The notes beneath the pieces are model-generated. The model made no database searches and was not told where the DNA came from. It saw only the letters and a program-made list of their open reading frames with translations. A stretch of DNA of 64,000 nt. Source: Cyanidioschyzon merolae. Lineage: Eukaryota. The translations under genes were made by a program, and so were the position numbers. Positions 955-64,000 of the stretch are shown one piece after another (positions within the stretch are counted from its first letter, which is position 1; the number at the start of each line of letters is the position of its first letter). The DNA lies in assembly GCA_000091205.1 (NCBI GenBank), contig AP006488.2. One strand, written 5' to 3'.

Positions 955-2745
955 ATGGCTGCGAACACGGAAGGTGACGAAGTTTCGCTGCCAGTGGCGA
1001 AAACGCTTCGCAGTATACTGGAGCTGACGGACCCCAGAGAGGCTGCAGATGCCTTCGCCGCTTTCATCGGCCTGCACACCCAGCGTATGGAAGACACATA
1101 TGGGCCACAGAACAATTGGGGAAAGCTCAAGGATGAACTGTATAAATGGCAACTTAGCCTCGCGGAGGTATTGGTAGCCACCCTCCAGCAGCGAATCTTT
1201 GAAACGTATCCACCGCATGGCTCGGGGGCAACCCACGGCCTTCGGATACCTCGTCGAAATGCATGGCTGCTTTTGTCGCAACTCGTATACTACGTCTCAA
1301 AGCGAGGTCTGTTGAGACCCCATGCTCGTAGCGTTCTCAGCGCTGTTCGCTACGAGCTCTGGAAGGAAATGGGATGGGTCTACTTTGCGGAACTGGCGTA
1401 CTTTCTTGTTCGTTGGCGGCAGCAGTTCGTTGGGCTGCTCACCACCAGAATGAGTTCGACTGCTTCTGGTTGTGATCGCCGCACCAGCTACCCCACCGCT
1501 CGTGATTACGAGGCCTCTCATGTGATCGTAGCGGTACTGCCGCAGGTGCTGCGCTACGTTCCCGCACAGACGTGGTCCGCTCTCGGCGCAAGAGCGCCGT
1601 ACACTGGGACACAGTCGGGACAAATTGATCTTCAACAGAATGCAGTTCCGGCAACGCGAGAGGCGCTGCTCAGTTGTTTCGTTGCGCATACGGCTTGGCG
1701 ACATCCGGAACGCCTCGTAGAAGCCACGCTTGTTCCGAATCAATGGAGAGATATGGTAACGCATGCTTGGCTCGATGAAATTCTCCTTCGGGAGCAAGCT
1801 ATTTTGCGGCCGTGGATGATGCCTGCAATCACGGCCATGGAAGACGATAAGACTGCCCTTGAGGACGCTGTTCTACGCGAAACGAATCGAGAGCAGTTTG
1901 AGGTGGACGCTTTGCGGGCGCTGGCCAGCTTACGTATCTGCCGTGAGTTGTTTGTGCCAGGACCTTTGCATTGCCCTCCGCTAGATATGACGTTGGCGCC
2001 CAGGGTCACCTCGGAGACAGGATCTGGCCTCCGAGAGCTGCGTGTATGGAAAGCGATCTTCCTCGAGAGGGCCTCATCGCTCGATGAGGAACGGGTTCCA
2101 CGCTGTCTTCGAGTCGACGGAGGAGCCGCAGCTCGCCTCGTTGATGTCATTCATGGAGCATCTCTTTCGCCCCTGGAGGCAGACACCATCCTGGACCGCC
2201 TCATCGACGCTGATGAAACCCTGATTCACCGGCTTCACTTGAGTCCGGAGGATCTTCTGCGCTTCCACGAGAATCACAGCGTTCGGCATACAGCCCGGAT
2301 CTTGCAACACCTGGTTGATACGTGCACCAACCGCTTGCCAGAATATATGGACGCATTCACGTTGCTTCCGGTAACGATTTCGAATCTGTCTCTTGTTCAC
2401 GCAGTAGATCGGGAACTCTTCTTTCGGCTGTACACAAGCCGAGTTTGTGCTCAAGGACGCACACTGGTCTCGTGGAATGACACGGCTTCGGAGCGCGTCG
2501 CTGAGCTCTTCGCGACCTTTGTTCTACGCATGCTCGATGAACGTCCCACCTGGATAACGAATGAGATCTCCGTAGAACTTGAAGCCTGGGCACTTTGTGC
2601 ATCCAGGGTGATGCGCCCTGTGGAACTTTATCGTTGCCTTCGGCGACGACGTTTAAGTCCCAGTGCACGCCCACAAACAAGCACGGCGGTAGCAGCGTCT
2701 GGCGAGTACATCTCGTTCCAGTTGCTATCGTCGGATGCACAGTAG
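955..2745 (+). CDS. Hypothetical protein, 596 aa, no recognised domain.
   Basis: Uninterrupted 1.8 kb ORF with an ATG at 955 and GC-rich codon usage. Confidence 0.55.
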   Translation: MAANTEGDEVSLPVAKTLRSILELTDPREAADAFAAFIGLHTQRMEDTYGPQNNWGKLKDELYKWQLSLAEVLVATLQQRIFETYPPHGSGATHGLRIPRRNAWLLLSQLVYYVSKRGLLRPHARSVLSAVRYELWKEMGWVYFAELAYFLVRWRQQFVGLLTTRMSSTASGCDRRTSYPTARDYEASHVIVAVLPQVLRYVPAQTWSALGARAPYTGTQSGQIDLQQNAVPATREALLSCFVAHTAWRHPERLVEATLVPNQWRDMVTHAWLDEILLREQAILRPWMMPAITAMEDDKTALEDAVLRETNREQFEVDALRALASLRICRELFVPGPLHCPPLDMTLAPRVTSETGSGLRELRVWKAIFLERASSLDEERVPRCLRVDGGAAARLVDVIHGASLSPLEADTILDRLIDADETLIHRLHLSPEDLLRFHENHSVRHTARILQHLVDTCTNRLPEYMDAFTLLPVTISNLSLVHAVDRELFFRLYTSRVCAQGRTLVSWNDTASERVAELFATFVLRMLDERPTWITNEISVELEAWALCASRVMRPVELYRCLRRRRLSPSARPQTSTAVAASGEYISFQLLSSDAQ

Positions 2746-3595: not shown

Positions 3596-3812
3596 GATGT
3601 TCTTTGACAATACGGACACTACCAGGTGTGTCGGGGTTCGTGTCCCATACTCATTCTCTGCGACAAGACGAACACTACCAGGTGTCTCGGGGTTCGTGTC
3701 CCATACTCATTTTCTGCGACAAGACGAACACTACCAAGCGTCTCAAGGTTCGTGTCCCATACTCGTTGTCTAGAACAATACGGACACTACCAAACGCCTC
3801 AGGGCAAATGCG
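3596..3812. repeat. Tandem repeat of a roughly 57 bp unit in about 3.7 copies. Each unit contains 'GGGGTTCGTGTCCC', which resembles a tRNA B-box (T-loop).
   Basis: Direct reading shows units starting near 3607, 3663, 3719 and 3775, for example 'acaagacgaacactaccaggtgtctcggggttcgtgtcccatactcattttctgcg'. Confidence 0.8.
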
Positions 3813-4422: not shown

Positions 4423-5097
4423 ATGGGGGCGTGTTTCGGAAAGCCTTCCGAAGCTGGAACCAGCGCTCGAGACGCCAGCTCAACTCGTCGACGCGGAAGC
4501 AGAGGTGATGGTGGTGGTGGTGGTGGCGGTGGCGGCGGCGGAAGGACGAACGCGCATCGCCCCGGCCAACGCATAGAGCTGCTTCTCTTGGGCTTGGATG
4601 GGGCTGGTGCAACCACCATTCTGTATCGCCTCAAGCTACAAAAGTTCATCATTACCGTTCCGACTTTGGGATCTGTAGAGGAAACCATTCGTTGGGGCTC
4701 TGAGGAAATTCTCTTCCATGACCTTGGCGGCACAGATAAACTGCGCCCGCTCTGGCCCATGTATCAGGATGGCATTCAGGGAGTCATCTACGTGGTGGAC
4801 GCTGCCGATCGCCGCCTTGTGGACGCCAACCGTCGTGAGCTGCGACGGTTCTATCGTGCTGCCGTGAAGCTCCACGACGCACCCTTGCTCATCTTTGCCA
4901 CGAAGCAGGACCTGTCTGACGCGATGACGAGTGAGGAGCTGCAGCGAGAGCTTGGACTCGAAGAAATCCCGTGCCGATGTTATCATGTCGCTGGCTGCTC
5001 GGCGGTTACAGGGGAGGGTATTCACGAAGGCATCGACTGGATCGTCGGAGAAATCCGGCGCGGAGGTTCACGGGCGGCGAGCACGTTGCGGAAATGA
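4423..5097 (+). CDS. ARF-like (ARL) small GTPase paralog with an N-terminal MGxC motif (likely myristoylation) and a Gly13 tract. The P-loop Lys, the catalytic Gln and the NKxD Asn are all substituted, so it is probably a pseudo-GTPase.
   Basis: 'LGLDGAGATTILYRLKL...TVPTLGSVEE...DLGGTDKLRPLW...IFATKQDL...CSA' is collinear with the Arf motifs GLDAAGKTT / DVGGQDKIRPLW / NKQD / SAK. ATG at 4423. Confidence 0.85.
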   Translation: MGACFGKPSEAGTSARDASSTRRRGSRGDGGGGGGGGGGGRTNAHRPGQRIELLLLGLDGAGATTILYRLKLQKFIITVPTLGSVEETIRWGSEEILFHDLGGTDKLRPLWPMYQDGIQGVIYVVDAADRRLVDANRRELRRFYRAAVKLHDAPLLIFATKQDLSDAMTSEELQRELGLEEIPCRCYHVAGCSAVTGEGIHEGIDWIVGEIRRGGSRAASTLRK

Positions 5098-6160: not shown

Positions 6161-7027
6161 ATGGTTTGCAAACGCTCGCCCAAACGAGCCGTATCTTCGG
6201 GTTTCATAGGAATCTCTCTATCTGTATCGCGTATTCAGTCTGTAGTACGCCAAACTTTACAGAGAACTTCGTGGCTGCCTAAAGCGACGAACAACAGGTT
6301 CGCTCGCGACGATGGGGCAACAACGGTGCAACGGCGCTGGCGGCGACGGGGACCGCGTCCGCATCAGCCGCAGTCCCCCTGCGCCTTGATTACGAGCAGC
6401 TTCAGCGTGGTAGGTGTTTCCCAGGCGGCAGCGGGCCAGCACTTGGCCTATGCCTTCGGGGTGAGTCTGCCGCCGACAATGTTGGCCTGGTTCGGAAGCA
6501 CTGGCACGAGCATGACGACGGAGTTTGACGGCGCGAACTCGCTAACGCCGGTCGTGTGGGTACTAGGTGCGGTCGCTGGCCTTGTGGTATCCCACTTGGC
6601 GCAGCAGTCTCCAGCAGCAGTCCGGAAAGCGTGGCTCCGGTTCATTCGAGGTGCGGACGCTCGAGAGGCGAACCCAACTTGTCCAGCGTGCGAGGGCGAG
6701 GGCTCCATCGACTGTCTCTGCCAACGCTGGCGGGTGCCTGACGCCAGCAGCGACAGTTCAGAAAGCAGAAGCGAGCCAAAGGGGCCCCTTCAAAAGGCTT
6801 CGCGGGGTTGGAACCTCTTCTCAAAGAGCAGGACAAGGGTCGCGTTGACAAAGAGCACCTGCTCTCGCTGCCACGGAACAGGACGTGAGCCATGTCCCCG
6901 CTGTGGCGGTGGGGGCATGCTCGTGCACAGCGACGAGGCGTCGCTCCGAGGCGACACCGTGCCCGTGCACCTCGAGGATGGATATGACTGGGAGCGAGCT
7001 GCACGGCTGAAGCGAGACTCGAGATGA
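6161..7027 (+). CDS. DnaJ-type zinc-finger (CxxCxGxG x3) protein with a hydrophobic segment. Its architecture resembles small organellar DnaJ-like Zn-finger membrane proteins such as LQY1/BSD2.
   Basis: Motifs 'CPACEGEG', 'CSRCHGTG', 'CPRCGGGG'; TM-like 'LTPVVWVLGAVAGLVVSHLAQ'; ATG at 6161. Confidence 0.6.
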   Translation: MVCKRSPKRAVSSGFIGISLSVSRIQSVVRQTLQRTSWLPKATNNRFARDDGATTVQRRWRRRGPRPHQPQSPCALITSSFSVVGVSQAAAGQHLAYAFGVSLPPTMLAWFGSTGTSMTTEFDGANSLTPVVWVLGAVAGLVVSHLAQQSPAAVRKAWLRFIRGADAREANPTCPACEGEGSIDCLCQRWRVPDASSDSSESRSEPKGPLQKASRGWNLFSKSRTRVALTKSTCSRCHGTGREPCPRCGGGGMLVHSDEASLRGDTVPVHLEDGYDWERAARLKRDSR

Positions 7028-9996: not shown

Positions 9997-10749
9997 ATGT
10001 GGGTATCGGGCATTGCGTTGTGCACGGTAGGCAATATGAGTCGCGGCTCGTTCAACTGTCAGCGGGTTGGGGTCCTGCTCAGCGCTGGCAGTTTCTCGCC
10101 CCCGACACTGATGCACCTGCTCTCTCTCGAGCAAGCTCGCGAGTACGTTGAAAATACTTTGCATCATCCAGTTTGGAAAGGGTTTCTCTCACCAGTGCAC
10201 GACGCTTATCAGAAACCTGGTCTGGTGGCGGCGAAACACCGGCTACAGATGTGTGCGCTCGCTGTGAAAGACTCGGACTGGGTCCAAGTCGATGCCTGGG
10301 AAGCCCAGCAACCCTGCTACTCTCCGACGTTTCAGGTTGTGCAGAGCCTGCGAGAACGTTTGGAGGCCCAGCGACGCCTGCCTGACCCTGGTCCGAGTGT
10401 TTTCCTTGTTTGTGGTGCTGATCTCGTTGCCTCGATGAACAATCCCAGTATCTGGCCTGTTGAGCACTTGCAGAAACTATTCGCGCTCTGTGAGGTGGTG
10501 GCGCTTCCACGCCCTGCTCTCGATGCAACTGACGAAGAAGCACTAGAACGGGTCCTAAGACAATATCCTGCTGCAATCCATTACTGGAAAGACGCACCCG
10601 TCCAGTGCAATATCTCATCGACGCTGGTACGCGAACGCGTCGCACATGGGCGCTCGATACGCTACCTCACGCCCCGTGCCGTGGAGAACTACATCTGGGA
10701 GCACGGATTATATAGACAAACAAACCCTAGTATTGAATCCGCCCAATAA
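9997..10749 (+). CDS. Nicotinamide/nicotinate mononucleotide adenylyltransferase (NMNAT).
   Basis: 'LLSAGSFSPPTLMHL' matches the (H/T)xGH nucleotidyltransferase motif region (GSFNPITNMHL in NMNATs). 'SSTLVRE' matches the ISSTxxR motif. Confidence 0.85.
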   Translation: MWVSGIALCTVGNMSRGSFNCQRVGVLLSAGSFSPPTLMHLLSLEQAREYVENTLHHPVWKGFLSPVHDAYQKPGLVAAKHRLQMCALAVKDSDWVQVDAWEAQQPCYSPTFQVVQSLRERLEAQRRLPDPGPSVFLVCGADLVASMNNPSIWPVEHLQKLFALCEVVALPRPALDATDEEALERVLRQYPAAIHYWKDAPVQCNISSTLVRERVAHGRSIRYLTPRAVENYIWEHGLYRQTNPSIESAQ

Positions 10750-13700
10750 CCTCGGAGACACGCACATTGCTACCAGAGGAAAGACGCAATCTCGAAATCA
10801 CTGGCGGAGCAGCCTGCGCACCTGTGTCGAGAAGCCAGCTCCATGCAGGACAAACGTAACAAGCGCATTACCGTATGGGACTGTTTGCAGCATCGTCGGA
10901 CGTGTCCCTGGAGCACTGTAGGAACTGGAATCCGTGTACGCAGAAATATTGAACGATGGAAAGTCGTGATTTTCGAACATTTGCCCCGGAAAGTTGTTCT
11001 CGGTGTGTGAATGGATGTGGCGCTTGAGCCTTTCGTGATCGCGGGCCATACTGTGCCAAAAACTTGCTCCAGGCGAGGTTCTAATGCCGCCTTGCCTGGC
11101 CATTGGTATTGTTCCATCGGGAGTTTTCCACACTTCTTCACAATGCCCGTGCTGAATCCTAAAGGATTTCTTTGAGGAATCGCTCGACACGAGGACGTTG
11201 GACCCACCGGAAGCGCCAGGCATTTCCAGATGTTGATCGCTTCGTTCAAGCCTCGGTGTGCATAGTGCCTACGCGTATTGTTGCACGTGAAATCACCCCA
11301 TACCGAAAAGCAAGCATGTGGCCTTCGATTGCCTCGCCACCCGACGATCGCCCAACTTACAGTACACAATCACGTGCATGCTTCTCCGTTTCACTCGCAT
11401 CATTTACGGACCGATATCGATGTGGTCCTGTACTCGTGATACGTATACGTTGTTCCGAACTCACGGATGGAAATCGTACCGGATCGATTCCTGCACTCGT
11501 TACAGGCGCGACTCGAAGGAGCAAGAATGCGGCCCCTGAACTGAGCAGAATGTACAGCGCCATTGAGTATCACGAAACGACGCGACCTGTCGGTCAGTTC
11601 CTTTATGTTTTGCAGAAGTTTGCAAATGCATATCCATTGCCTCCGCACAGCAGCAACCGTTGGCGAAGCCAGCGCGGTGGCAGGTACTCCTGCCTAGAAT
11701 CGCATGCATGAAATGTTCGAACGCTAACGTGCGCTCTGAATGGTGTATCCGAACCACCCCCGGTGCTCGATACGGTTGCCAGAACCTCGAAACGGCTCCT
11801 GGTGCCGTCAATCAACTTGTTGGTATGACTATTGGCGTCCATAAAACCCGATTCTCGACGCCACCTAGCCCTAGAAAATATGAACAGATCGACCAGCATA
11901 ACATTCCGATTTTTGACTCCGTCCTTTTCACTTAGACGTCTGGCGACGGTGTTCGTAGTTCCTCAACCCGGGATCGACATCAAGGACCAAGTCTTGTTCT
12001 TCTTGTGCATTGAGCAATTTAAAGAACGTCGTGCTGTTAGACTCAGGACTAGGCCTCACGAAGCGCATGCAGACCGATATTCCGGCCGTTTCTATGATCC
12101 CTGTACACTTCTGTCCATTTCCCCGTGCAGACGAGAAGCCTGGAACGACCTCCGCCAGTGCTCTTCGTGAAGGTGTTCGATTCGCTCGCACATGCTCGCA
12201 GAGACCAGCCGTTCCCCATTATGGAGGCTATTCAATACAGAAGAATATTGTCTAGGGTGATGTCAAGGCGCTTGATGTGACACTCGGGGATCGCATCGAC
12301 CAGAAGCTTGAGGAGGCAAGGACGCCCGACTAGAGGAGCGAGCCTGCTATGCTCTGGAGCGCTCTATTCAGGAGCACTTGGTCCCGCACGATGGGCAGAA
12401 GAAAGGCATCCCGTTTCATTCGTTCTTTGGATACGACGTGCGTCGGTGCGGGGCAGAGAGCGACATGAAGCGCATAAACGAACCGAACCAAAGCTCGCAC
12501 TCGTTGCGACTCGGCTGCCGAAGGCGCCACAATATCAATCTTTTCCGTAACCGCCGGCTCGTCATTTGCCTTTGCCAACATCCCAAGAATACCTTCCGTA
12601 GGTAACATTTTTTGTATTCCAGTCATCTGAAGCCACAGTGGCTGCAATGCCTACGGTGTGCGCATCATGAGTCGCTCGCGATTGATCCGCATCTGGTTTA
12701 CAATACTGGCTTGATATTTTATGACATCCGCGCTGTAGACTTTTTTGAACGTCTGAGATGGCTCGGCAACGTCTCAAGGTACTCTGGGAAGCGTGTGTGT
12801 GCAAATCGCCGATCCCATGATCACGCTGTGTGTCACGTTCTATACAGAGCCTCAGCTATGGGGTCGCACGAAGGTTTGATCGAAATTTTCCGGGAAAATG
12901 AGTACGGCCAGCAGGCCGCTGCTTCCGAAGCTCTCACAAACTGTTGAACGATTAGGTACGTCGAGACGCGGGATGCCCAGCTTGCCGTGTGCGAACAGGG
13001 AGCTGCACGACCCTTACTGCAGTCCTTATACTAACTTTAGGAAGATTATTTCCGTCGACGTGGTTGAATAGAGAGGATTTGAAAATGGTTCAGGACTGAT
13101 GTTCCGCTCGGATCGTTTGCTTTCTGTTTTTCGTGGACCTCTGTTCCAATGGATCTTTCTCTTTTTTGGCCTGGGGTGAGTTGGCCTCCAACTCGACCAG
13201 GTGATCTTGGGCAGGGATATATTCGCTATGCACCATATCTCTAGTTTACGTTGGATTCAGACGCACTGGCTGCGCGCTGGGACTGAAACTTGCATTTCCT
13301 TCAAACGCATCTGCTATTCTCGCAGTGCTTTTTGGTTAGCTTCTTCGTCGCGAGCACACCAACGAACCGAAGCGCACCTTTGCGCTCCCTTCCGCGCTCG
13401 AGCAGCGGCGCGAAGCAGCAGTTCAGTGCTCGTGAACCTCGATTATGATTCATTGAAGACCGGTGACACGGATTCGAGTGGCCCCTCGGTTAGTATATCA
13501 GCCTGAGAATGACGTTCACGAATGATGCAGACGCCTTCGACCCGACTGATCCAGGGATATGAGCTGCCGCGAAGCGCAACACAACGCCAATCCCAGCTGG
13601 ATACCCCCAGACTTGTTTATCGCGATGAAGAGCGACACTTTCTAACAGCAGGCCAGAATCATCTGCGAAGGAGCAGCCACGAAGCGTGCTCCCACGAAGG

Positions 13701-14224
13701 ATGCGTTCTTGAAAGATCCTATCCGTTTGGTGATTTGTCGGCGATCACGTGACTGAATCGTAGCTCAGGCTGATGTTGTTCGAATGCTCGCTTGTGTCTT
13801 CTTTGGGAACAATGGTAGTAGTTCCAGTAGAAAATATGGAGCAAAAATTGATTGACAAGAAGACAGTGGTGTAGATACATTCAAAAAAGCTCAGGTTTGA
13901 GCGTATGCCATGCAGGGTACGGACCAAAAGACGGAGCAAAACATACGCACCTGCACACCGTGAATCATTGTCTTGTCGTACTTCACGAGCTAGCTGTTCT
14001 ACCAGAGAATCTGCACGTGACCCGCGTCCAGTCTAAAGGACGCATTCCTTTTGTTGAATACATATGAACCAGGCAAACAAAAACAAAAACGGCAGGCTGG
14101 TACATGTATTCCAGCATTCGCTCCTCTGAATATCGCGACCGGCGCTGGTGACATGATCACCTTCGCTCAACCGTGGGGCCTATATAGGAGGGCGCTTCTC
14201 GAATGCGGTTTATGGAGGAAACTG

Positions 14225-14335
14225 CATAGAGATAGACGCATACACGCAAACACGCAAACACGCAAACACGCACACACGCACGCACACACGCAAACACGCA
14301 CACACGCATACACGCACACACGCACACGCATGCAA
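14225..14335. repeat. Microsatellite (CACGCAAA / CACACGCA)n.
   Basis: Direct reading of 'cacgcaaacacgcaaacacgcaaacacgcacacacgcacgcacacacgc...'. Confidence 0.8.
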
Positions 14336-14530
14336 GTCCGCCTGCTGTGCGGCTGCCAACATCATGCGTCTCCGCCGACGCCTCACTTTGCCGCTGGAAA
14401 ACGCGCTCTGCCAGGACGTTCTTCGTCGGGCAGCACTTGAACGCTTTCGCAGGAGCATGCGCCCGCGCATCCTCGTATTTGCGGTCGCCACAATGCCGAA
14501 AAAACGGCGGTCATTGCATCTAAACCAGTT

Positions 14531-16258
14531 TCAGTCCCAGACCTCTACCATGTATCGGCCTTGCATGGCCATGAGACTGAGCATTTGCTCAGCCTCTGAG
14601 GCGCTGAGACCAGCGCGGCTGCAGAGCACCGCTTCCAGGATCGCTCGACGCACTTCAGCTGGCATGCTTGTGCTCGAGCTGCCTGCCACCATGATATGGA
14701 CTCGCTGCGAGCGATCCGTACCCTTGAAACAGGTCTCGTAAATCAAGTCTGCATCTTGCCGAATACGATCCTGTACATAGCATTTGGGGCGACCGTCTCG
14801 CGGTCGAGAGTACGCGGGTAGTCGCTGTACCACGGACGACGGCCAATTCTCCCGGAATAAATCATCCGCGGTATCGTTCCGACAGCCGTACACAAGGATC
14901 TTGTTCGACGGCAGCCGTGTTGTCGAAATCGTTGCCAGGTGCGATGTCATGCAACGGAAGACGCCAATACCGGTACCAACTGCCACCATGAGCATCGGAC
15001 ACTCCGGATCTGCGGGTAGTCGAAGCGTTCCCGGTTGAATCCAAAGACATACCGAGTCGCCGCTCTGCAGATTACGCAGGCAACCACTCATTGTTCCGAT
15101 CCGGAGACGTCGCAGAGGTGTTGCGTAGCGCACCAGGCGGACGCATATCTCTACAAGTGCATTGTCTTCAGGCGAGGCTGCTTTTGCTGCATCGCGCATG
15201 TCGGTGGCAATCGAGTAGCCACGCGGTTGCATTCTCGGCATGACCTCGAGAGCATGTGCGAGGCTCGGGAAACGTGCAGATGGGAAATCGCGCAGCACAA
15301 GCAGCACCGTTCGCTGTTCATGGAGGATATAGCTGGCGTACGCGGCGGCACTGTCCGCGATTTCCAACAGACGACGCTGCTCGTGAGCCTCCGTCGCGAA
15401 GCAGGCAAGTTGACGTAGAAATCGACGTCGGGGAATTCCGTTCAAGTCGAAGAGGCGTTGCACCAGCGATCGCGCCCTGACTCGCTCTCCAGTCAGATTT
15501 TCTATCCAGAACACTTCATTCGGATCCCATGATGGGAATAACTGAAAGAAAGCATCCACAGCGCTGGGCCGATTCTGAGGAACAAGGTACGCAACGTCTC
15601 CAGGCATGAAAATGGGCCCCGCTGACCCCGAGCGACCCACGAGGAAACGAAAGAGCACCACGTGCTTTTCATCAGGATAAGTATCATCGAGGGCCAGTTC
15701 CCGTGCGTCCAGAAAGACTGCTTCCCGGTTCACAGGCCGGAGATGCCAACGAGACGGTGCTATTCGTTGCTGCCTCTGCTGCTGACGGCGTCGATAGGCC
15801 TCCATGCGCTGGGCGCCCAGGAGACTCGTCAACCACTCGTTAAAGGCATCTTCCCAGAGCGCACCATCGCCCAGACCAATGGGTTGGATGCGGGTGGCAC
15901 CCAGCTGGGCGAGCCGCACATCGAGGCGTCGTGCTACCGCGTTGAACTTGGGATAGCTACGATCACCAAGTCCGAACACTGCGTATCGCACGGCTCGCAG
16001 CCAGTTGGCGGGGAGACGCCGCTTTCGCAGAAAACGCCAGAACGCTGCAAAGTTATCCGGCGGCTCTCCGTCTCCATAGGTGGAGACAACGAACAGGACA
16101 ACAGACTCGAACGGAAGATTCTCCGGATCATAGAACTGAGCGCTTCGGCAGTCAGCACCAGGACCTATAGCTTCTGCGAGCGTAGCTGCGGCGTCTGCAG
16201 CGTTACCCGACTGTGAGCCGTAGACGACCAGTGCGTGCTCCAGGAATTCATCGTCCAT
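14531..16258 (-). CDS. NADPH-dependent diflavin oxidoreductase (NDOR1/Tah18-like) with flavodoxin, FAD and NADPH domains.
   Basis: N-terminal flavodoxin 'VVYGSQSGNAADAA...VVSTYGDGEPPDN', FAD motif 'RGYSIATD', NADP site 'GTGIGVFRC'. ATG at 16258. Confidence 0.75.
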   Translation of the reverse strand: MDDEFLEHALVVYGSQSGNAADAAATLAEAIGPGADCRSAQFYDPENLPFESVVLFVVSTYGDGEPPDNFAAFWRFLRKRRLPANWLRAVRYAVFGLGDRSYPKFNAVARRLDVRLAQLGATRIQPIGLGDGALWEDAFNEWLTSLLGAQRMEAYRRRQQQRQQRIAPSRWHLRPVNREAVFLDARELALDDTYPDEKHVVLFRFLVGRSGSAGPIFMPGDVAYLVPQNRPSAVDAFFQLFPSWDPNEVFWIENLTGERVRARSLVQRLFDLNGIPRRRFLRQLACFATEAHEQRRLLEIADSAAAYASYILHEQRTVLLVLRDFPSARFPSLAHALEVMPRMQPRGYSIATDMRDAAKAASPEDNALVEICVRLVRYATPLRRLRIGTMSGCLRNLQSGDSVCLWIQPGTLRLPADPECPMLMVAVGTGIGVFRCMTSHLATISTTRLPSNKILVYGCRNDTADDLFRENWPSSVVQRLPAYSRPRDGRPKCYVQDRIRQDADLIYETCFKGTDRSQRVHIMVAGSSSTSMPAEVRRAILEAVLCSRAGLSASEAEQMLSLMAMQGRYMVEVWD

Positions 16259-16906
16259 CGCTTGGCAGTAGCCTTAACGACGCAAGCCGCTCGTGCAGTC
16301 CACGAGAGCGTCGTTGCGAGCGCTGTCAAGCAGCTCTGTGGTGCCAGTGCCGCCTGCCAAACGGCCAAGCCGCAAGCAGGTTCACAGGCAGGGCGTGCCT
16401 CCTCAGAAGCGGCGGCCAGTCAAGAATAATGGATGAAGGCTTCGATCCAGCTCCACGAAACTTGTGTTGGGACTTGCACTATGCCTAGCCAATAGGCATG
16501 CAGTGCGATAAAAAACCTTGGTCGTCACAGATCCTGTCTACGTACAGCACAAGCACAAGCACAAGCACAAGCTTCACCAAAAGCCAGCTAGCTTAGTTAG
16601 CTAGTCAAACAGGCTGGGTGCGCTACGCGTGATCCGCATACTGGGACAGTCAACGGCGAGCGTTGCGAACGCTTTCTTCTCGAGTGATCGTGATAGGTCA
16701 GAGCTCGTGCTCTATCGCGCAGTGCAGCACTCAACGACGCTCTCTTACTATACTCCACTCAAGCAATCCACTTACGCAACGAAGCCGGACGGAGTACCGC
16801 TTCGCCTATAAGCAACTTATTGCTACACTAACCGGGGCTGGCGGAGGACTTTTTTTGACCGCAGCTTTCGTGGACACTGCAGCACTATGTGCGAAAGTCT
16901 CGTTGG

Positions 16907-17857
16907 ATGCTGAAACGCAACGGTCAGAGCCGCGTTTCGGCAACGACGGAGCCACCGGCGACGACAAACTCGGTCGTGGACGTTGAGGCAGGGCGGGACT
17001 CGCCACCGAACGTGTGCCTGCAGCCTGCACTTGAACACTGGGGCGACCACGCGTACGCCGAACACAATGCACTGTCTGAGAGAGGCCGTGCTGAGCGGGA
17101 AACTTCTGACGCTGGAGCGGTAGCGCTCAGTGACTGCACCAGAGGGTCCAGGCAGAGCGCAGGTGCGACTGATGCACCAGCAGCGTGTGCAGGAACAGCA
17201 AGTACCCACGAGACAAGTTGCGCTTTATCTAACGCTGACCGGCCCGAAGGTCAACGAACCGACAAGCAAACCTCGCATACTATGCGCGTCCAGGCGAGTG
17301 CGAGCTGGACACACGCTGTAGACGAGAACCCGCAGCGATCAAAGGACTCGTGTGAGCGACAGCAGCCCGCTTCGGATGGACGCAAAGCCTCTCCGCCGAA
17401 CTCGGGACCTGCACTGGGGTCAACGAGCCCACAGACGGATCATAGCAAGCCCGGGGGTACAGGAGCTGCACAAACGCCAGCACCGAATCAGAATCCTGTT
17501 GATAGCTTTCGCTGGCAACAACTTCTCCAGTATCATGCGTCGCGTAACGTAGGATCCAGAGCGCGAGATCTTTTAGCCCTGGAGAGGACTTTTCTTTCCA
17601 TGATTCGGACGAGCCTCTCATCCGTGGCGCTCGGGGTTGCCATTGCGAAACTCATTGGAACCCGCCTAGCGGATGCTACCGGCACGGTGTTCATTAGCCT
17701 CGGGCTCCTGACGCTGATAATTGGACTCTGGCGGTATTACACTCAAATTTTGGCCATTGAGCGGGGCCAGTTCGCAGCCGACACCGTATTTCCTTGGATT
17801 GTGGTGGTTCTGCTGCTCACGTCCGGTGTGGTGTCGCTGGTGCTTATCTTCAAGTGA
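16907..17857 (+). CDS. DUF202 (YidH/VTC1-type) membrane-domain protein with a low-complexity N-terminus.
   Basis: C-terminal 'ARDLLALERTFLSMIRTSLSSVALGVAIAKL' plus two further TM segments matches the DUF202 core. The track start at 16889 is GTG; the first ATG is near 16907. Confidence 0.6.
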   Translation: MLKRNGQSRVSATTEPPATTNSVVDVEAGRDSPPNVCLQPALEHWGDHAYAEHNALSERGRAERETSDAGAVALSDCTRGSRQSAGATDAPAACAGTASTHETSCALSNADRPEGQRTDKQTSHTMRVQASASWTHAVDENPQRSKDSCERQQPASDGRKASPPNSGPALGSTSPQTDHSKPGGTGAAQTPAPNQNPVDSFRWQQLLQYHASRNVGSRARDLLALERTFLSMIRTSLSSVALGVAIAKLIGTRLADATGTVFISLGLLTLIIGLWRYYTQILAIERGQFAADTVFPWIVVVLLLTSGVVSLVLIFK

Positions 17858-18147
17858 GGCATCGGCGGAAGCGTGACACCCGAGACTAGATTGACATTGC
17901 CTCGAATATTCTACTCGTCTAAAGAGTCTTGACGTAACCAGCGCATGCCGTCGTCTGGCTCGGAATCGAAGGCGTCTGGCGTCGCCTGAGCCTGCGCTCC
18001 GGAGCTCTACACCGGTGTCCAATGGGACTGAGGCATGGAACTCCAGACGCTGTTCCTGTCTTGCGAGTTTCCGCAGCGAATTTTCGAGGCACAGCCACGA
18101 AAATGAGATGTACCAGAGTCAGAGCTCATGGAAACATATGTAGTTTT

Positions 18148-19250
18148 ACGATTCTCGGTCGTGATTGTGGAGTAGGTTCTCTCACGCCCTCTGACACTGG
18201 ACCTTGGCTCGTCATCCGGGACCAAGATGATTCGCGACGTCCTCGAAAAATTGTTTAGAGAACAACCGATGCCATAATCTAGTTCATGTGGACAAGAATC
18301 CAGGCGTCTCGTTTTCGAATTGTTCTCTGTTTCTAGGCACTTCTTGGGTGCAGGAGTCTGCGCATTTGGATGGACGAGGAAGAGGAAAACTCAACGCCTT
18401 GCCCTGATAAGTTGTCCAGAAGCTCATGCAGAAACTTTGCTGAACGTATCACATTCATCCGTGGATTTCGTTCGACAGACAAATCGTCCTCTGTTTGTAG
18501 CCGCCGTCGAAAAGCGATTCGGTACCAGCATCATGCATCGCACGGGATATGCTCTGGAAGGTTCGCAGCTCTTTCTCTTTGCATGGACATGGGTTTTGGA
18601 CTCGGACTCGGACTCGAGTCATCGCAGCGATCGCTTCCAATAGAATGTGCGCCAATGCTTTGCATGATGAGAGTGTAGACGGATCGACGCTTCTCGACAT
18701 GATTTCCAGGCTGGATTTTTCGTGCGGTATCTCCATCATCGTGAACACCATCGCTTGGCACAAATCCTTTCTTGAATAGGATAGGGGGCGCTTGCGCACA
18801 CAGCAAACAGAGTACTCTCCGAGTGGGTCATTTAGAAGAGGTCCATGATCATCGTGTACGTTACCGGGCGCGGAAAAGAATGAGTGCGCCAACGGGGCGC
18901 CTCTGTACCCATCAAGGACATGTAGCCGGTGGTGAAGCAGATGTTCACGGGCGACAAGGCAACGCTCGGTGAACGAGGTACCCTAGGCACACGAGACCAG
19001 CGGACTGCAGTCAAAATACCGCTGCTGCAAAAGGTACACGGACGGTATTTATAGATATAGAAGACGAAAGTGGCAAGCAACGCTTCGATTCCAAATCCCG
19101 CATGTCCATTACAAGAAAAGGAACAGACGGAAGTTGCGAAATCGAGACTTGAAAGTTGCCGTCCACGACCTTCGACATCTGACTTCAGAGCTGGGGGCAC
19201 AGGAGCGGCTGACGCATTGAAAGCCGGAGATGAGGGAGCGGAAACCGTAA
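18148..19250 (+). mobile_element. Small TnpB-like element, family B copy B2 (about 1.1 kb), degenerate.
   Basis: Collinear nucleotide homology to B3 over its whole length. The RuvC-III-equivalent region is 'RNRDLKVAVHDLRH' (frame of 'ggaagttgcgaaatcgagacttgaa'). Shares the 3' tail 'cgcattgaaagccggag' with B1. Confidence 0.5.
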
Positions 19251-20286
19251 TAGCGATGTGAGCATTCCGCACGGGCTGCCGATGATGTACATGAGAAGAG
19301 ACCCAATCTTTACTTATTCCGCCCGTGGTAGCTGCGTGGATTCCTTGCATTCTACTCTGGTGCGAGCCAAAATGATGGACATTCAGAAACATGACCGCAA
19401 CCGATGCGTCATTTTGGTAGAGTATGAAAACGAACATTTCGTGCTGCGATCATCTTTGGAACCTGACCATGTCCAAAATTTCCGTCTTCGTTCAACGAAA
19501 ACAGGTCTGCTGTATCTTGTTACAGGCACGGTGCCCAGAAACGGACGCGTGCTGCACTGCAACCCGCAGTCGTCAACGAAGCGCTTGTCGTACCAAATGC
19601 GAGTGTGCTCACGAACAGACAGCCGGCGTTGTCTACTGATGCACACTGCGCAGTTCCACATCTTCGATGACGACTGACGATGAAAAGCCGCGGCTATATG
19701 GCACATAGACGAATGCGCTTCGGCGTTTCTCATCACAGAATACCGAACGAGATCCGAGTTTCGTTTTCCGTCCACGTTCATCTATGTGCGCCATCTCCCG
19801 GACAGCCTGAGCAACGAGCGTTCAGCCGCAAAAGTCGTCGTTCGGTGCTCTGTTTTTTTAACCAGTATAGCGGAAGAGGCAGCGTCCATCAGGAACACGA
19901 ACTGTTCGCAAGCGAGTGCGAGCCGACGCTGATCCCTCGCCGCTCTTGTGCCGACCCAAAAATCCTTCGGTTCATGCGCGTCATCGCCGTTGACTGCGTC
20001 GACTCCCAGCGAAATGCTCTCAACTCGCACCATAACGGAGCTGAGGTTTCGAATTTGCATACGGACCGTAGCCTGGAAACCAAATACCCTATTCCGAATG
20101 AATCAGTATCGCGAAGTTTGCCTTTCAAGTCGCTGATGTCTCGAATACGTTCAGGGCCGGCCGCCCAGTCATCCTGATCCAGCCTGGTTGGATCAGCATC
20201 AAGACGTTGCCGTTGCCAGACTTGCTCTAGCAGCATCGGCTCCCAGAAGGCCATTGGTACCTTCACTCGATGGATTGGCTCCAGCA

Positions 20287-21390
20287 TTATGCCGCAGAAG
20301 ACGGAGGTTTCGCTACCGGCGACGATGCGGGCTGAGGTGCAGTCACGGAGACTGCTTGCAAACAGCTGAGAATCTTCTCGGGATTCGAGAGCTCTTTCTC
20401 TGTTTGCAGACACGGCATGGAGACGTCATCAAGAGCGTACGGACCGACGCGAAGTCGAACCAGACTTGTCATGTGCGCGTGCGTGCCGAGAGCTTTCCCC
20501 AGGTCGTCAATGTAGGTGCGGATATAGGTTCCCCCCGAGCAGTCCACGAACAAGGTGCCTGTGCCCTGTCTCGCGTCGAATGCCTCGCAGCGTGCTTCGA
20601 AGACGTAGACCGTTCGAGAAGGCAATTCACCGATCGCATCGGCTTTACCGGCCCGAGCGAGGTCATACAGCCGTTCACCTTGCACGCGAACTGCGGAAAA
20701 GGCTGGTACTCGCTGCACGATTGCACCGTGGAATGCCTCCGACTGCAGGAGGCGATTCAGCGCCTCAACGTCATATTCACGGAGATGCTCAAAACTCGAG
20801 CGCGCTATCACTTCACCAGTGCAATCTTGAGTATCCGTCGCTGAGCCGAGTTTGAACGTTGCCCGGTACTGCTTGCGTCCGCGTTGGAACTCCCAAAGCT
20901 GCCGCGTGTACTGCGCGCCTACCGCTAGAACGAGTACACCACTCGCGAGCGGGTCCAGCGTTCCACCGTGTCCGACGCGAAGTCGAAAACGACGTGAGCG
21001 CCGACCTGCACCAGACCCAGATGACGACTTGCCGACACCCGCAGGAGGACTAGCAGCGGTGGGCGCCTCGTGTTGTCGTAGGTACTTTTCCAGGGTTGCG
21101 CGTACCTTGTTCACGACGTCGAACGACGTCCAGTTCTGAGGTTTATTGACGATCAAGATGCCACTGGGTTCTTTCGGCGAACGAGCTGCGCAGCGCAGGT
21201 CACTAACAGCACGAGAGCGCTTCCGGGAGCCAGGCATGGACCCAAGCGCTGGCCCAAGTGCAAAACCAGAAACACCGCTGCCACCGACGGCGGAGGCAGC
21301 AAAAGCAGTCGTCGAAACAGCAGCAGCAGCGCCAGGAGCAGTGGTTCGCAGGGGACGCACCAGGCTCAGAAACGCCAACTGAGTTCTCAT
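20287..21390 (-). CDS. tRNA pseudouridine synthase, TruB/Pus4 family.
   Basis: 'GHGGTLDPLASGVLVLAVG' is the TruB catalytic-Asp motif region. ATG at 21390. Confidence 0.8.
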   Translation of the reverse strand: MRTQLAFLSLVRPLRTTAPGAAAAVSTTAFAASAVGGSGVSGFALGPALGSMPGSRKRSRAVSDLRCAARSPKEPSGILIVNKPQNWTSFDVVNKVRATLEKYLRQHEAPTAASPPAGVGKSSSGSGAGRRSRRFRLRVGHGGTLDPLASGVLVLAVGAQYTRQLWEFQRGRKQYRATFKLGSATDTQDCTGEVIARSSFEHLREYDVEALNRLLQSEAFHGAIVQRVPAFSAVRVQGERLYDLARAGKADAIGELPSRTVYVFEARCEAFDARQGTGTLFVDCSGGTYIRTYIDDLGKALGTHAHMTSLVRLRVGPYALDDVSMPCLQTEKELSNPEKILSCLQAVSVTAPQPASSPVAKPPSSAA

Positions 21391-57875: not shown

Positions 57876-58734
57876 ACTGCTTCCAAATTTCTATCATATA
57901 GTTAAACATGAAGAGGTGTCCAATGAAGTTCTCTCTTGTCGACTCTGGAGGTCTTTTCTCCAGCACCGCACATCTCCTTATATTGATTGCGGCATTAAAG
58001 TCTCGGTTCACAAACTCCATACGTTTCTTGCAATTGATTGTACTTCCTAATGCAAGTAGCCCTCGAACTTTCGCCCTCCTTTCCATTTGCTCGTCTGTCA
58101 GCGGTCCGTACTTTGCGATTTCCTCAGGGCTCCGTTGGCACTTTTCCATCTCGACCCTATGAAGTATACAGTCCAGTCCATGGTGTATATACGATGTTCG
58201 AAACTCATCTACAGGTATTGTAACAAAACGCCTTGCCCACTCCTTGTACGTTCTTGTCGTTGGAGCTGGCGTAGTCCATTTTTTGGGTCTTCTAGCGCCC
58301 TGCTCCGTACGCTTCTACTAGCCTCTGATTTTCATCCTCCTTCAGGGCACTCAACTGATTGAAAAAATTCGCGAACGCCCGCTGCTTCCCACAATACAAA
58401 TTCATTCGCAAACGAGCCCACGGGGGTTGGTATACTTCTCCCACAGCGCATCCCAATGCGCCATGCGAACTTTCATGAACTCCCGAAAAGCTTCAAAGTC
58501 CGCCCCTCGGCTCGTCACCTCGCTCAAAGCTTCCAGGTGATCCTTCGTTCCTGAATTCCATGTAACGATTTTCTTCCTCGCATTCATGGTGCCCGATTCC
58601 CGATTGTATCTCGCTCTCGAGAACCTCAAAAGACGCATGTCTTTCTGACGTAAGTTACCATCAGTCCCATCTTCCGCACACTTTGGTACAGAGATGGTTA
58701 TGATATTTGTATTCCCAGGGTCCGCGGCAACGAC

Positions 58735-59012
58735 AAAGTCGTTATCTTCCACTTTCTGGGTCGCAGGATCCGCCTCCTTCTTTTCTTCATCCTTCGCCGC
58801 GTCAAAGACAAAGTCGTTATCCTGCACTTTCTGGGTCGCAGGACCAGCCTCCTCCTCATCTTCATTCTTCGCCGCGTCAAACATAAAGTCGTTATCCTCC
58901 ACCTCCTGCGTCGCAGGACCAGCCTCCTCTTTGTTTTCTTCATGCATCGCCGTGCCAACGACAAGGTCGTTATCTCGCACCTCCTGCGTCGCAGGACCCG
59001 CCTTCTTCTCAT
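58735..59012 (-). repeat. In-frame 72 bp tandem repeat (4 units) inside the A3 ORF, encoding acidic 24-aa repeats.
   Basis: 'EEAGPATQEVEDNDFMFDAAKNEDE' appears 4 times; the last unit runs into the RuvC-I strand. A2 has a single copy. Confidence 0.8.
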
Positions 59013-63800: not shown

Positions 63801-64000
63801 GTCGTGTCGGCTGCTGGTTCAGCATTTTGGTTCCTCGGGCGCGGGTACCATCTGCAATGGATGGGCCAGTGATCTGAGGCATCCCAAATTCGGTCAACGG
63901 CGGTTTGTAGGAGTGCCGGGTCGCATCGGTCGCTTAAGATGTGGTCTATCGATGAGCGAAGCAAACGTTGGTCGGTAATGCGGTGCCACGTCAGGGGTGA
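60900..64000 (-). mobile_element. Non-LTR (LINE) retrotransposon fragment containing the APE-endonuclease C-terminus and the RT domain. It is frameshifted and continues beyond the window end. The 3' boundary is uncertain (between about 60500 and 61370).
   Basis: Minus-strand ORFs: 63512..63964 'IDHILSDRC...DASDHWPI' (end of the EEP/APE domain); 62452..63480 'NRKTPGIDGIATEWMKL' (RT motif 0/1, PGPDGI-like); 61924..62259 'LLADDVVLLA...KMNVGASKCGV' (YxDD box). Confidence 0.65.

What the first reader, a model, noticed from the sequence alone, without database searches (positions are those of the whole stretch)
4423..5097. ARF-like GTPase with all three nucleotide-handling residues replaced, plus a Gly13 insertion
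The sequence is otherwise very Arf-like and includes an N-terminal MGAC (myristoyl/palmitoyl-type) start. The P-loop reads GLDGAGATT, losing the Lys of GxxxxGK[ST]. Switch II reads DLGGTDK, losing the catalytic Gln of DxGGQ. The guanine motif reads ATKQD, losing the Asn of NKxD. The losses coincide, which argues for a nucleotide-independent pseudo-GTPase paralog rather than random decay, since the ORF and fold motifs are intact. A (GGN)13 tract encodes a poly-Gly linker after the lipidation motif.
Basis: partly seen in the sequence, partly recalled or inferred. Interest (0 to 1): 0.55.

Follow-up and report, generated by a model that had tools for sequence, protein, structure and literature searches.

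The report
Red-algal Arf-like protein ArlRhodo, lysine-less P-loop
The ORF is the already catalogued Cyanidioschyzon merolae gene CmeArlRhodo, a lipid-anchored Arf-family protein found only in red algae; its missing P-loop lysine and catalytic glutamine are real, old and kept by selection, but they more likely make it a hydrolysis-dead, weak nucleotide binder than a nucleotide-free protein.

Summary
Window 4423..5097 (+) is an intact 224-aa Arf-family ORF (Pfam Arf, E=8e-46) reading GLDGAGATT, DLGGTDK and ATKQD, with an MGAC start. The glycine run is 11 contiguous Gly, not 13.

It is not new. The protein is identical to CmeArlRhodo (XP_005535694.1) of Vargová et al. 2021, a red-alga-specific ARF-family paralogue predicted to be N-myristoylated and S-palmitoylated. 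That paper's main text does not discuss the G-motif changes.

The gene is not decaying. In the G domain pN is 0.03-0.07 while pS is 0.67-0.76, and the locus is syntenic across Cyanidiales.

The three changes did not arise together:
- Gln loss is family-wide.
- Lys loss (to A/S/G/T) occurs in every major red-algal lineage sampled.
- Asn-to-Thr is recent and confined to Cyanidioschyzon/Cyanidiococcus. It is probably harmless, because Rac1 uses TKLD.

All other nucleotide and Mg contacts are invariant in 19 Lys-less members. This argues against a nucleotide-independent protein.

Best reading: a permanently membrane-anchored, GTPase-dead Arf-like adaptor. Interest is moderate to low.

The parts
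4423..5097 (+). Complete intronless CDS (224 aa plus stop) of CmeArlRhodo, an ARF-family protein
   Evidence: ORF list. Pfam Arf E=7.9e-46. Sequence identical to CmeArlRhodo / XP_005535694.1 in Suppl. dataset 1 and Table 1 of PMC8358228.
4423..4443 (+). MGACFGK: predicted N-myristoylation (Gly2) plus S-palmitoylation (Cys4) membrane anchor
   Evidence: MG.C or MGC is conserved in all full-length Lys-less family members. Vargová et al. predict myristoylation 'yes' and palmitoylation at C4 for this protein. The modification itself was not tested here.
4444..4563 (+). Disordered low-complexity linker (aa 8-47) standing where Arf proteins have their N-terminal amphipathic helix
   Evidence: In the AF2 model almost all of residues 1-40 have pLDDT <50 (segments 1-4, 9-22 and 24-40), residues 41-50 average 79, and there is no helix before strand 51-57. 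The region evolves fast: N-terminal pN is 0.34-0.37 against 0.07 in the G domain. It is absent in Cyanidium caldarium.
4504..4542 (+). Gly tract G-D-G11 (12 GGN codons plus one GAT)
   Evidence: 11 contiguous Gly at aa 30-40. A near-identical metagenomic strain (99%, 97%) carries 10 Gly and lacks the G-D (L003/L004). Cyanidiococcus has a G/S-rich tract instead, and Cyanidium has none.
4564..5061 (+). Arf-fold G domain (aa 48-213)
   Evidence: AF2 10-residue block means are 91-98 for residues 51-210. Foldseek against GTP-form Arf1, Arl1 and Arf6 gives rmsd 1.3-1.7 A and TM 0.91-0.95; GDP-form Arf1 (1r8q, 1re0) gives rmsd 4.4-4.5 A.
4591..4617 (+). G1/P-loop GLDGAGATT: Ala63 in place of the P-loop Lys, with Thr64 and Thr65 kept
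   Evidence: This position is A16/S2/G1 in 19 Lys-less ArlRhodo sequences, and K in canonical Arf/Arl and in the Porphyridium-type subgroup.
4654..4671 (+). Switch I core TVPTLG, keeping the Mg/gamma-phosphate Thr81 (Arf1 T48)
   Evidence: T78, P80 and T81 are invariant in all 36 aligned sequences.
4720..4740 (+). G3/switch II DLGGTDK: Thr104 in place of the catalytic Gln, with the DxxG core kept
   Evidence: This position is T in Cyanidiales, L/M in other Lys-less members and S in the Lys-bearing subgroup. Among the Vargová-dataset and members it is never Q; one unplaced Lys-less representative, P0251, keeps Gln.
4897..4911 (+). G4 ATKQD: Thr160 in place of Asn, with Lys161 and the guanine-specificity Asp163 kept
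   Evidence: Thr occurs only in the Cyanidioschyzon/Cyanidiococcus lineage; Cyanidium caldarium and all other members have NKxD. Rac1 uses TKLD.

Best explanation
The ORF is CmeArlRhodo, the single Cyanidioschyzon merolae member of ArlRhodo, an ARF-family paralogue found only in red algae. It is a functional gene.

Proposed mechanism, all inferred:
- Myristate on Gly2 and palmitate on Cys4 hold the protein on a membrane permanently. A flexible 40-residue spacer replaces the GTP-regulated amphipathic helix of Arf proteins, so membrane binding is uncoupled from nucleotide state.
- The G domain keeps a guanine-nucleotide and Mg pocket: the G1 threonines, the switch I Thr, DxxG, the Lys and Asp of [N/T]KxD, and SA.
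- It lacks the P-loop Lys and the catalytic Gln. It therefore probably binds nucleotide more weakly and cannot hydrolyse GTP by the Arf/ArfGAP mechanism.
- The expected result is a GTP-like, 'always on' conformation that presents its strongly conserved switch/interswitch surface to one or more unknown effectors.
- Control would come from expression or palmitate turnover rather than from a GEF/GAP cycle.

This corresponds to a class ii-like pseudoGTPase (binds nucleotide but does not hydrolyse it), not a nucleotide-free one.
For: Identity (shown). The sequence is identical to CmeArlRhodo / XP_005535694.1. ArlRhodo is described as red-alga-specific, with Gly plus Cys lipidation.

Functional gene (shown).
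- In the G domain, pN is 0.03-0.07 against pS 0.67-0.76 within Cyanidioschyzon/Cyanidiococcus. Omega is at most about 0.05 there and about 0.06-0.12 against Cyanidium.
- Neighbouring genes are syntenic.
- Lys-less relatives occur in transcriptome assemblies: Eucheuma denticulatum P0139 and MMETSP P0016.

Pocket still constrained (shown). In 19 Lys-less members T31, T48, D67, G69/G70, K127, Q128 and D129 are invariant. T32 has one Ser and A160 is mostly kept. Position K30 is always a small residue (A16/S2/G1).

No amphipathic helix and a GTP-like fold (model only).

Precedents.
- Irga6-K82A keeps GDP and GTP-gamma-S affinity but cannot hydrolyse, and is constitutively active. The natural GX4GMS IRGM proteins lack the P-loop Lys, and Irgm3 was reported to bind GTP (PMC2532785).
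- Rac1 has TKLD.
- Rap1 has Thr at the Gln61 position.

Retention. It is one of only 7 ARF-family genes that C. merolae keeps (Suppl. table 3).
Against: - No biochemical, localisation or expression data for this protein were found.
- The P-loop Lys contacts the beta and gamma phosphates, and its mutation abolishes binding in several GTPases, as noted in PMC2532785. Binding could therefore really be lost.
- The invariant G-motif residues could be kept for fold stability or partner binding rather than for a nucleotide.
- AF2 conformations are not reliable indicators of nucleotide state.
- Two of the three Arf1 effector-triad positions differ in Cyanidiales (F51 to S/A, W66 to H), so the effector surface is not Arf-like in detail.
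- Lipidation is predicted only.
Confidence: 0.55

Rival explanations
1. True class i pseudoGTPase. ArlRhodo no longer binds any nucleotide and acts as a lipid-anchored, nucleotide-independent scaffold whose Arf fold is frozen in one conformation.
For: - The P-loop Lys is missing in all Cyanidiales orthologues and in most of the family.
- The catalytic Gln is missing in nearly all members.
- In Cyanidioschyzon the G4 Asn has also gone.
- Loss of this Lys abolishes binding in several GTPases (cited in PMC2532785).
- A lipidated Arf-family putative class i pseudoGTPase, ArlEM, has been proposed in microsporidia (PMC13393502).
Against: - In ArlEM the G motifs are typically mutated and the GTPase domain is extremely divergent. 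Here only one to three positions changed.
- Every other nucleotide or Mg contact stayed invariant across the deepest red-algal splits.
- The Asn-to-Thr and Gln-to-Thr states are compatible with nucleotide binding in Rac1 and Rap1.
- Irga6-K82A still binds GTP.
Confidence: 0.3
2. Partner-completed or re-purposed pocket. The small residue at the Lys position makes room for a basic 'finger' supplied in trans by a binding partner, or for a different ligand. Nucleotide binding would then occur only inside a complex.
For: - The replacement is always small (A/S/G/T), never bulky or charged.
- The rest of the pocket is invariant.
- A family-specific Lys replaces Arf1 E41 at the alpha1/switch I junction in all ArlRhodo: K17/R1/Q1 in Lys-less members, K10 in the Lys-bearing subgroup, E7 in canonical proteins.
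Against: - This is purely inferential. No partner is known.
- The E41-equivalent Lys is also present in the Lys-bearing subgroup, so it is not a specific compensation.
- Model coordinates could not be inspected for distances.
Confidence: 0.1
3. Decaying pseudogene, assembly or sequencing error, or a strain-specific oddity.
For: None beyond the unusual motifs. The trinucleotide Gly tract is slippage-prone and varies in length between strains.
Against: - The ORF is intact in five independent assemblies.
- Omega is at most about 0.05-0.12 with saturated synonymous sites.
- The A63 and T104 codons each differ by two bases from the canonical codon.
- The same substitutions are found across red algae.
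Confidence: 0.01

Closest known systems
ArlRhodo (Vargová et al. 2021, Genome Biol Evol 13:evab157; PMC8358228)
   Same: The sequence is identical to the listed CmeArlRhodo (XP_005535694.1). It shares the red-algal restriction, the ARF-family G domain, and the predicted Gly2 myristoylation plus Cys palmitoylation.
   Different: Nothing differs; this is that protein. However, the paper's main text contains no mention of glutamine, and mentions 'P-loop' and lysine only in unrelated contexts. The atypical G1, G3 and G4 motifs documented here appear not to have been remarked on.
ArlEM, Arf-family putative pseudoGTPase of Eumicrosporea (BMC Biol 2026; PMC13393502)
   Same: A lineage-specific Arf-family member kept in a strongly reduced gene set, with an N-terminal extension predicted to be lipidated and a disrupted P-loop.
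   Different: In ArlEM the canonical G motifs are typically mutated, the domain is extremely divergent, and some members carry deletions within it. ArlRhodo keeps every G-motif residue except Lys and Gln (plus Asn in one lineage) and gives a near-perfect Arf-fold model.
IRGM 'GMS' immunity-related GTPases and the Irga6-K82A mutant (Hunn et al. 2008; PMC2532785)
   Same: A natural replacement of the otherwise universal P-loop Lys (GX4GMS) in membrane-bound regulatory GTPases. Irgm3 was reported to bind GTP. A K-to-A P-loop mutant binds GTP but cannot hydrolyse it, and is constitutively active.
   Different: They belong to an unrelated GTPase family (large IRG proteins). The replacement residue is Met rather than Ala/Ser/Gly. 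They act on paralogous GKS proteins, and no such partner is known for ArlRhodo.
ARL13B
   Same: An Arf-family member that is S-palmitoylated near its N-terminus and, from my own knowledge, lacks the catalytic Gln and acts as a GEF for ARL3 rather than as a classical switch.
   Different: It keeps the P-loop Lys and binds GTP. It has a long C-terminal domain and is ciliary, whereas red algae lack cilia. ArlRhodo shows no phylogenetic affinity to any ancestral ARF clade.
Canonical Arf1/Arf6/Arl1
   Same: Best sequence and structure matches: 38-45% identity and rmsd 1.3-1.7 A. The G2 myristoylation site, the DxGG motif, the 'RPLW..Y' switch II region and KQD are shared.
   Different: ArlRhodo has no P-loop Lys, no catalytic Gln and no N-terminal amphipathic helix. 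It adds a palmitoylatable Cys. Triad residues F51 and W66 are replaced in Cyanidiales.

Membership tests
ArlRhodo (red-alga-specific ARF-family paralogue) | ARF-family G domain | tested here: met
   Pfam PF00025 at E=7.9e-46. The AF2 model superposes on Arf/Arl structures at TM 0.91-0.95.
ArlRhodo (red-alga-specific ARF-family paralogue) | Belongs to the red-algal clade named ArlRhodo | tested here: met
   The sequence is identical to the published CmeArlRhodo. In my NJ tree it groups with Cyanidium/Cyanidiococcus (100%) and Galdieria ArlRhodo (58%), inside the group of other ArlRhodo sequences. Bootstrap for the whole clade was below 50% in this crude tree; the published ML tree recovers it.
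ArlRhodo (red-alga-specific ARF-family paralogue) | N-terminal Gly2 plus nearby Cys (predicted myristoylation and palmitoylation) | tested here: met
   MGACFGK in the window. MG.C or MGC is present in all full-length Lys-less members. The chemical modification itself cannot be tested here.
Canonical Arf/Arl molecular-switch GTPase | P-loop GxxxxGK[ST] | tested here: not met
   GLDGAGATT, with Ala63 at the Lys position.
Canonical Arf/Arl molecular-switch GTPase | Catalytic Gln in DxGGQ | tested here: not met
   DLGGT, with Thr104.
Canonical Arf/Arl molecular-switch GTPase | N-terminal amphipathic helix coupled to the interswitch toggle | tested here: not met
   Residues 8-47 are G/S/R/D-rich. 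In AF2 they are mostly pLDDT <50 with no helix before strand 1.
Class i pseudoGTPase (no nucleotide binding) | Does not bind nucleotide | not testable with these tools
   This needs biochemistry (mant-nucleotide, ITC or HPLC on purified protein).
Class i pseudoGTPase (no nucleotide binding) | General degeneration of the G1-G5 motifs | tested here: not met
   Only K30, Q71 and (in one lineage) N126 equivalents changed. T31, T32, T48, D67, G70, K127 and D129 are invariant or nearly so in 19 Lys-less members.
Class ii pseudoGTPase (binds nucleotide but does not hydrolyse it) | Catalytic residue absent while the binding motifs are retained | tested here: inconclusive
   The Gln is absent and most binding residues are kept. 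The missing P-loop Lys leaves binding itself unproven. Irga6-K82A shows that binding can survive this change.

The most novel reading that the evidence does not exclude
ArlRhodo would be a natural small GTPase that lacks the P-loop lysine, has been kept since before the deepest sampled red-algal splits, and still uses its guanine-nucleotide pocket in a non-canonical way. Two versions are possible. In one, it is constitutively GTP-loaded and regulated by acylation turnover. In the other, a partner supplies the missing basic residue in trans. Either would be a new regulatory logic within the ARF family. The Lys-bearing Porphyridium-type subgroup sits inside Lys-less sequences in the tree, which hints that the lysine was either regained or lost repeatedly.
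Probability: 0.15. Interest if true: 0.7.

Novelty: already known. Interest (0 to 1): 0.35.

Why it matters
The gene and its family are already catalogued, so the finding adds no new entity. What is apparently unremarked is how the family has evolved. ArlRhodo has dispensed with the 'universal' P-loop lysine and with the catalytic glutamine, yet has frozen every other nucleotide contact since before the deepest red-algal splits.

That makes it a clean natural test of what the P-loop lysine is needed for in a small GTPase. It is also a candidate for an ARF-family protein regulated by lipidation rather than by a GEF/GAP cycle.

C. merolae keeps only seven ARF-family genes and is genetically tractable (the tractability is my own knowledge). 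The function of this one is therefore directly testable and would bear on the minimal membrane-traffic system of red algae.

Tried and rejected
- Exact look-up of the window protein in the assembly index found no record. Identity came instead from the supplement of PMC8358228.
- Literature searches for functional, localisation or expression data on this gene or on ArlRhodo found only the 2021 survey. Expression in C. merolae therefore remains unchecked.
- The Stiegler & Boggon pseudoGTPase review (PMC7544640) is not held. Class definitions were taken from PMC12722892.
- Cluster look-up named only one Lys-less relative, Eucheuma denticulatum. The rest are unnamed Logan or MMETSP sequences.
- In the representative-library search the top scores were tandem two-domain Arf proteins, inflated by double matches and irrelevant here. 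Only 9 of the 147 sequences I tabulated were Lys-less.
- A search for a compensating basic residue specific to Lys-less members found only K74 (the Arf1 E41 equivalent). It is shared with the Lys-bearing subgroup, so it was rejected as a specific compensation.
- The pseudogene or sequencing-error reading was rejected.
- A tRNA scan of the window found none.
- Bacterial-style promoter or operon reasoning was not applied, because this is a eukaryotic nuclear locus.

Full report
**1. The observation**

Window 4423..5097 (+) is a single uninterrupted ORF of 224 aa with an ATG start. It matches Pfam Arf (PF00025) over residues 48-209 at E=7.9e-46. Its best PDB sequence matches are Arf6 and Arf1 at about 1e-42.

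- GLDGAGATT, with Ala63 where Arf1 has K30.
- DLGGTDK, with Thr104 where Arf1 has Q71.
- ATKQD, with Thr160 where Arf1 has N126.

The start is MGACFGK. The glycine tract is G28-D29-G30..40. That is 11 contiguous Gly, or 12 GGN codons in a 13-codon tract, so 'Gly13/(GGN)13' is slightly overstated.

A non-Lys P-loop is rare in this family. Of the 369 mostly Arf-family proteins collected here, 25 matched my P-loop pattern with a residue other than Lys. All but one are relatives of this protein.

**2. What it is**

The closest database proteins are from cyanidiophyte red algae:
- An environmental strain, 97-99% identical.
- A second environmental lineage, 86-87% identical.
- Cyanidiococcus yangmingshanensis, 75% over the full length.
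- Cyanidium caldarium, 67%.

The eukaryote-wide ARF-family survey of Vargová et al. 2021 (PMC8358228) lists in Supplementary dataset 1 a sequence 'CmeArlRhodo [Cyanidioschyzon merolae]' (XP_005535694.1). It is identical over all 224 residues. The window is therefore C. merolae nuclear DNA, and the gene is an already named member of ArlRhodo.

The paper describes ArlRhodo as a red-alga-specific ARF-family paralogue with no affinity to any ancestral ARF clade. It is characterised by an N-terminal Gly and Cys predicted to be N-myristoylated and S-palmitoylated.

C. merolae has only seven ARF-family genes: Arf1, Arl1, Arl2, Arfrp1, Sar1, SRbeta and ArlRhodo.

The main text of that paper contains no mention of glutamine, and mentions 'P-loop' and lysine only in unrelated contexts. 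ArlRhodo appears in no other paper of the searchable library. The motif anomalies thus seem not to have been discussed.

**3. Is it a live gene?**

I recovered the orthologous DNA from Cyanidiococcus (L001), Cyanidium (L002) and three metagenome contigs (L003-L005).
- All five carry an intact ORF starting MGAC. This includes L005 once its truncated gene call is extended upstream.
- Nei-Gojobori counts on the G domain give pN 0.03-0.07 against pS 0.67-0.76 within the Cyanidioschyzon/Cyanidiococcus group. Against Cyanidium, pN is about 0.23-0.25 and pS 0.71-0.82.
- Synonymous sites are saturated and omega is at most about 0.05-0.12.
- The flanking genes are syntenic: a 277-288-aa ORF immediately downstream, then glutaredoxin, a cytidylyltransferase-like gene, a flavodoxin/FAD reductase, DUF202 and TruB.
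- Lys-less relatives occur in transcriptome assemblies of other red algae: Eucheuma denticulatum P0139 and MMETSP P0016.

Decay or sequencing error is excluded. Expression in C. merolae itself could not be checked.

**4. History of the three substitutions**

I used the ArlRhodo sequences from the paper's dataset, a profile search and a search of the representative library. I tabulated the G motifs.

- **Catalytic Gln.** It is absent from every ArlRhodo in the Vargová dataset and the census. It is T in Cyanidiales, L/M/V elsewhere, and S in the Porphyridium-type subgroup. One unplaced Lys-less representative, P0251, keeps Gln.
- **P-loop Lys.** It is replaced by a small residue in these members:
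  - Cyanidioschyzon, Cyanidiococcus, Cyanidium and Galdieria (A)
  - Porphyridium ArlRhodo1 (S)
  - Chondrus ArlRhodo1 (T) and ArlRhodo2 (A)
  - Eucheuma (A)
  - a dozen unnamed sequences (A/S/G)

  Only the Porphyridium-type 'ArlRhodo2a-c' subgroup has Lys.
- **NKxD Asn.** It is kept everywhere except in Cyanidioschyzon/Cyanidiococcus and the two related environmental lineages. Cyanidium caldarium still has ANKQD.

The three changes therefore did not coincide. They are nested events of very different age.

In a crude NJ tree the Lys-bearing subgroup sits next to Lys-less CcrArlRhodo1 and P0256 (79% bootstrap). This suggests either one ancient loss with a later regain, or repeated losses. The tree is too weak to decide.

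**5. Is it nucleotide-independent?**

The column census is the key result. Across 19 Lys-less members, spanning Cyanidiophyceae to Florideophyceae:
- The Lys position is always small (A16, S2, G1).
- T31 (Mg), T48 (switch I), D67, G69/G70, K127, Q128 and D129 (guanine specificity) are invariant.
- T32 has a single Ser, and the SA motif is largely kept.

A pocket that had been useless since before the deepest red-algal splits would not be expected to stay frozen like this. In the microsporidian Arf-family pseudoGTPase ArlEM, by contrast, the canonical G motifs are typically mutated (PMC13393502).

Rac1 has TKLD and Rap1 has Thr at the Gln61 position.

For the Lys there is direct precedent:
- Irga6-K82A keeps wild-type GDP affinity and GTP-gamma-S binding but cannot hydrolyse, making it constitutively active.
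- The natural GX4GMS IRGM proteins lack the Lys, and Irgm3 was reported to bind GTP (PMC2532785).

**6. Structure**

AF2, run with a 36-sequence family alignment, gives mean pLDDT 83.5.
- Ten-residue block means are 91-98 across residues 51-210, which covers the G domain.
- Almost all of residues 1-40 have pLDDT <50, and residues 41-50 average 79. There is no helix before strand 1, so there is no Arf-type amphipathic helix.

The model superposes on GTP-form Arf1, Arl1 and Arf6 at rmsd 1.3-1.7 A. It superposes on GDP-form Arf1 only at 4.4-4.5 A. This fits a permanently 'active-like' fold but is only a model.

The N-terminal linker evolves fast and varies in length. The window has 11 Gly, the near-identical strain has 10, Cyanidiococcus has a G/S-rich tract, and Cyanidium has none. 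It is a spacer produced by trinucleotide slippage, not a conserved element.

**7. Most likely mechanism (inferred)**

- Dual acylation fixes the protein to a membrane independently of nucleotide state.
- The G domain still accommodates guanine nucleotide, but with reduced phosphate affinity and no Gln-dependent hydrolysis.
- It therefore behaves as a constitutively 'on' adaptor that presents its highly conserved switch I / switch II surface (TxPTLG, DxGG.DK.RPLW..Y) to unknown effectors.
- Family-specific signature residues are K74 (Arf1 E41), L82, A127 and P154.
- Two effector-triad positions differ in Cyanidiales, so the effectors are probably not those of Arf1.

I put about 0.55 on this reading. 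The nucleotide-free scaffold gets about 0.3, a partner-completed or re-purposed pocket about 0.1, and an artefact about 0.01.

**8. Verdict**

It is already catalogued as CmeArlRhodo, so as an entity it is known.

The claims of coincident loss and of nucleotide independence are not supported.

The remaining interest is modest but real. ArlRhodo is an ancient, conserved small GTPase family that lacks the P-loop lysine while keeping the rest of its pocket. It sits in a genetically tractable organism with a minimal ARF set, and this property appears not to have been described.

Noticed in passing
window 3606-3792: A 56-bp tandem repeat (3.3 copies, 88% matches) lies in the intergenic region upstream of the gene. 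It produces several overlapping spurious ORFs with repeated peptides such as '...TLPGVSGFVSHTH...'.
   Followed up: partly
window 6161-7027 (+): A 288-aa ORF lies immediately downstream. It has no Pfam hit but carries CxxCxGxG-type cysteine motifs (CPACEGEGSIDC; CSRCHGTGREPCPRCGGGG) resembling a DnaJ-type zinc finger. An ORF of 277-288 aa occupies the same position next to the ArlRhodo gene in the Cyanidiococcus and metagenome loci L001, L003 and L005. L002 has a 192-aa ORF there.
   Followed up: partly
window 9997-21390; L001, L005: A conserved synteny block is shared with Cyanidiococcus: a cytidylyltransferase-like gene (9997-10749), a flavodoxin/FAD-binding reductase (14531-16258, minus strand), a DUF202 protein (16889-17857) and TruB pseudouridine synthase (20287-21390, minus strand). 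Cyanidium caldarium keeps the reductase and the cytidylyltransferase nearby, but rearranged.
   Followed up: partly
P0251 (representative library), 179 aa: This is an ArlRhodo-like protein with an MGAC start and a Lys-less P-loop (GLDGAGSTT) that still has Gln in switch II (HDIGGQVD). It could be an intermediate state. Its source organism is unknown.
   Followed up: no
Porphyridium-type ArlRhodo2a-c and relatives (P0122-P0134): This is the only ArlRhodo subgroup with a P-loop Lys. In the NJ tree it is nested beside Lys-less CcrArlRhodo1 and P0256 (79% bootstrap). That implies either a Lys regain or repeated independent losses.
   Followed up: partly
window 58001-64000: Base composition shifts at the end of the window. 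AT skew falls to between -0.17 and -0.28, GC skew reaches -0.20 at 58-60 kb, and GC drops to 0.50-0.53. Elsewhere skews are near zero and GC is mostly 0.51-0.61.
   Followed up: no
window 955-2745 (+): A 596-aa ORF upstream has no Pfam hit. A 575-aa gene in a similar upstream position in L005 has only a weak CNOT11 hit; I did not align the two.
   Followed up: no
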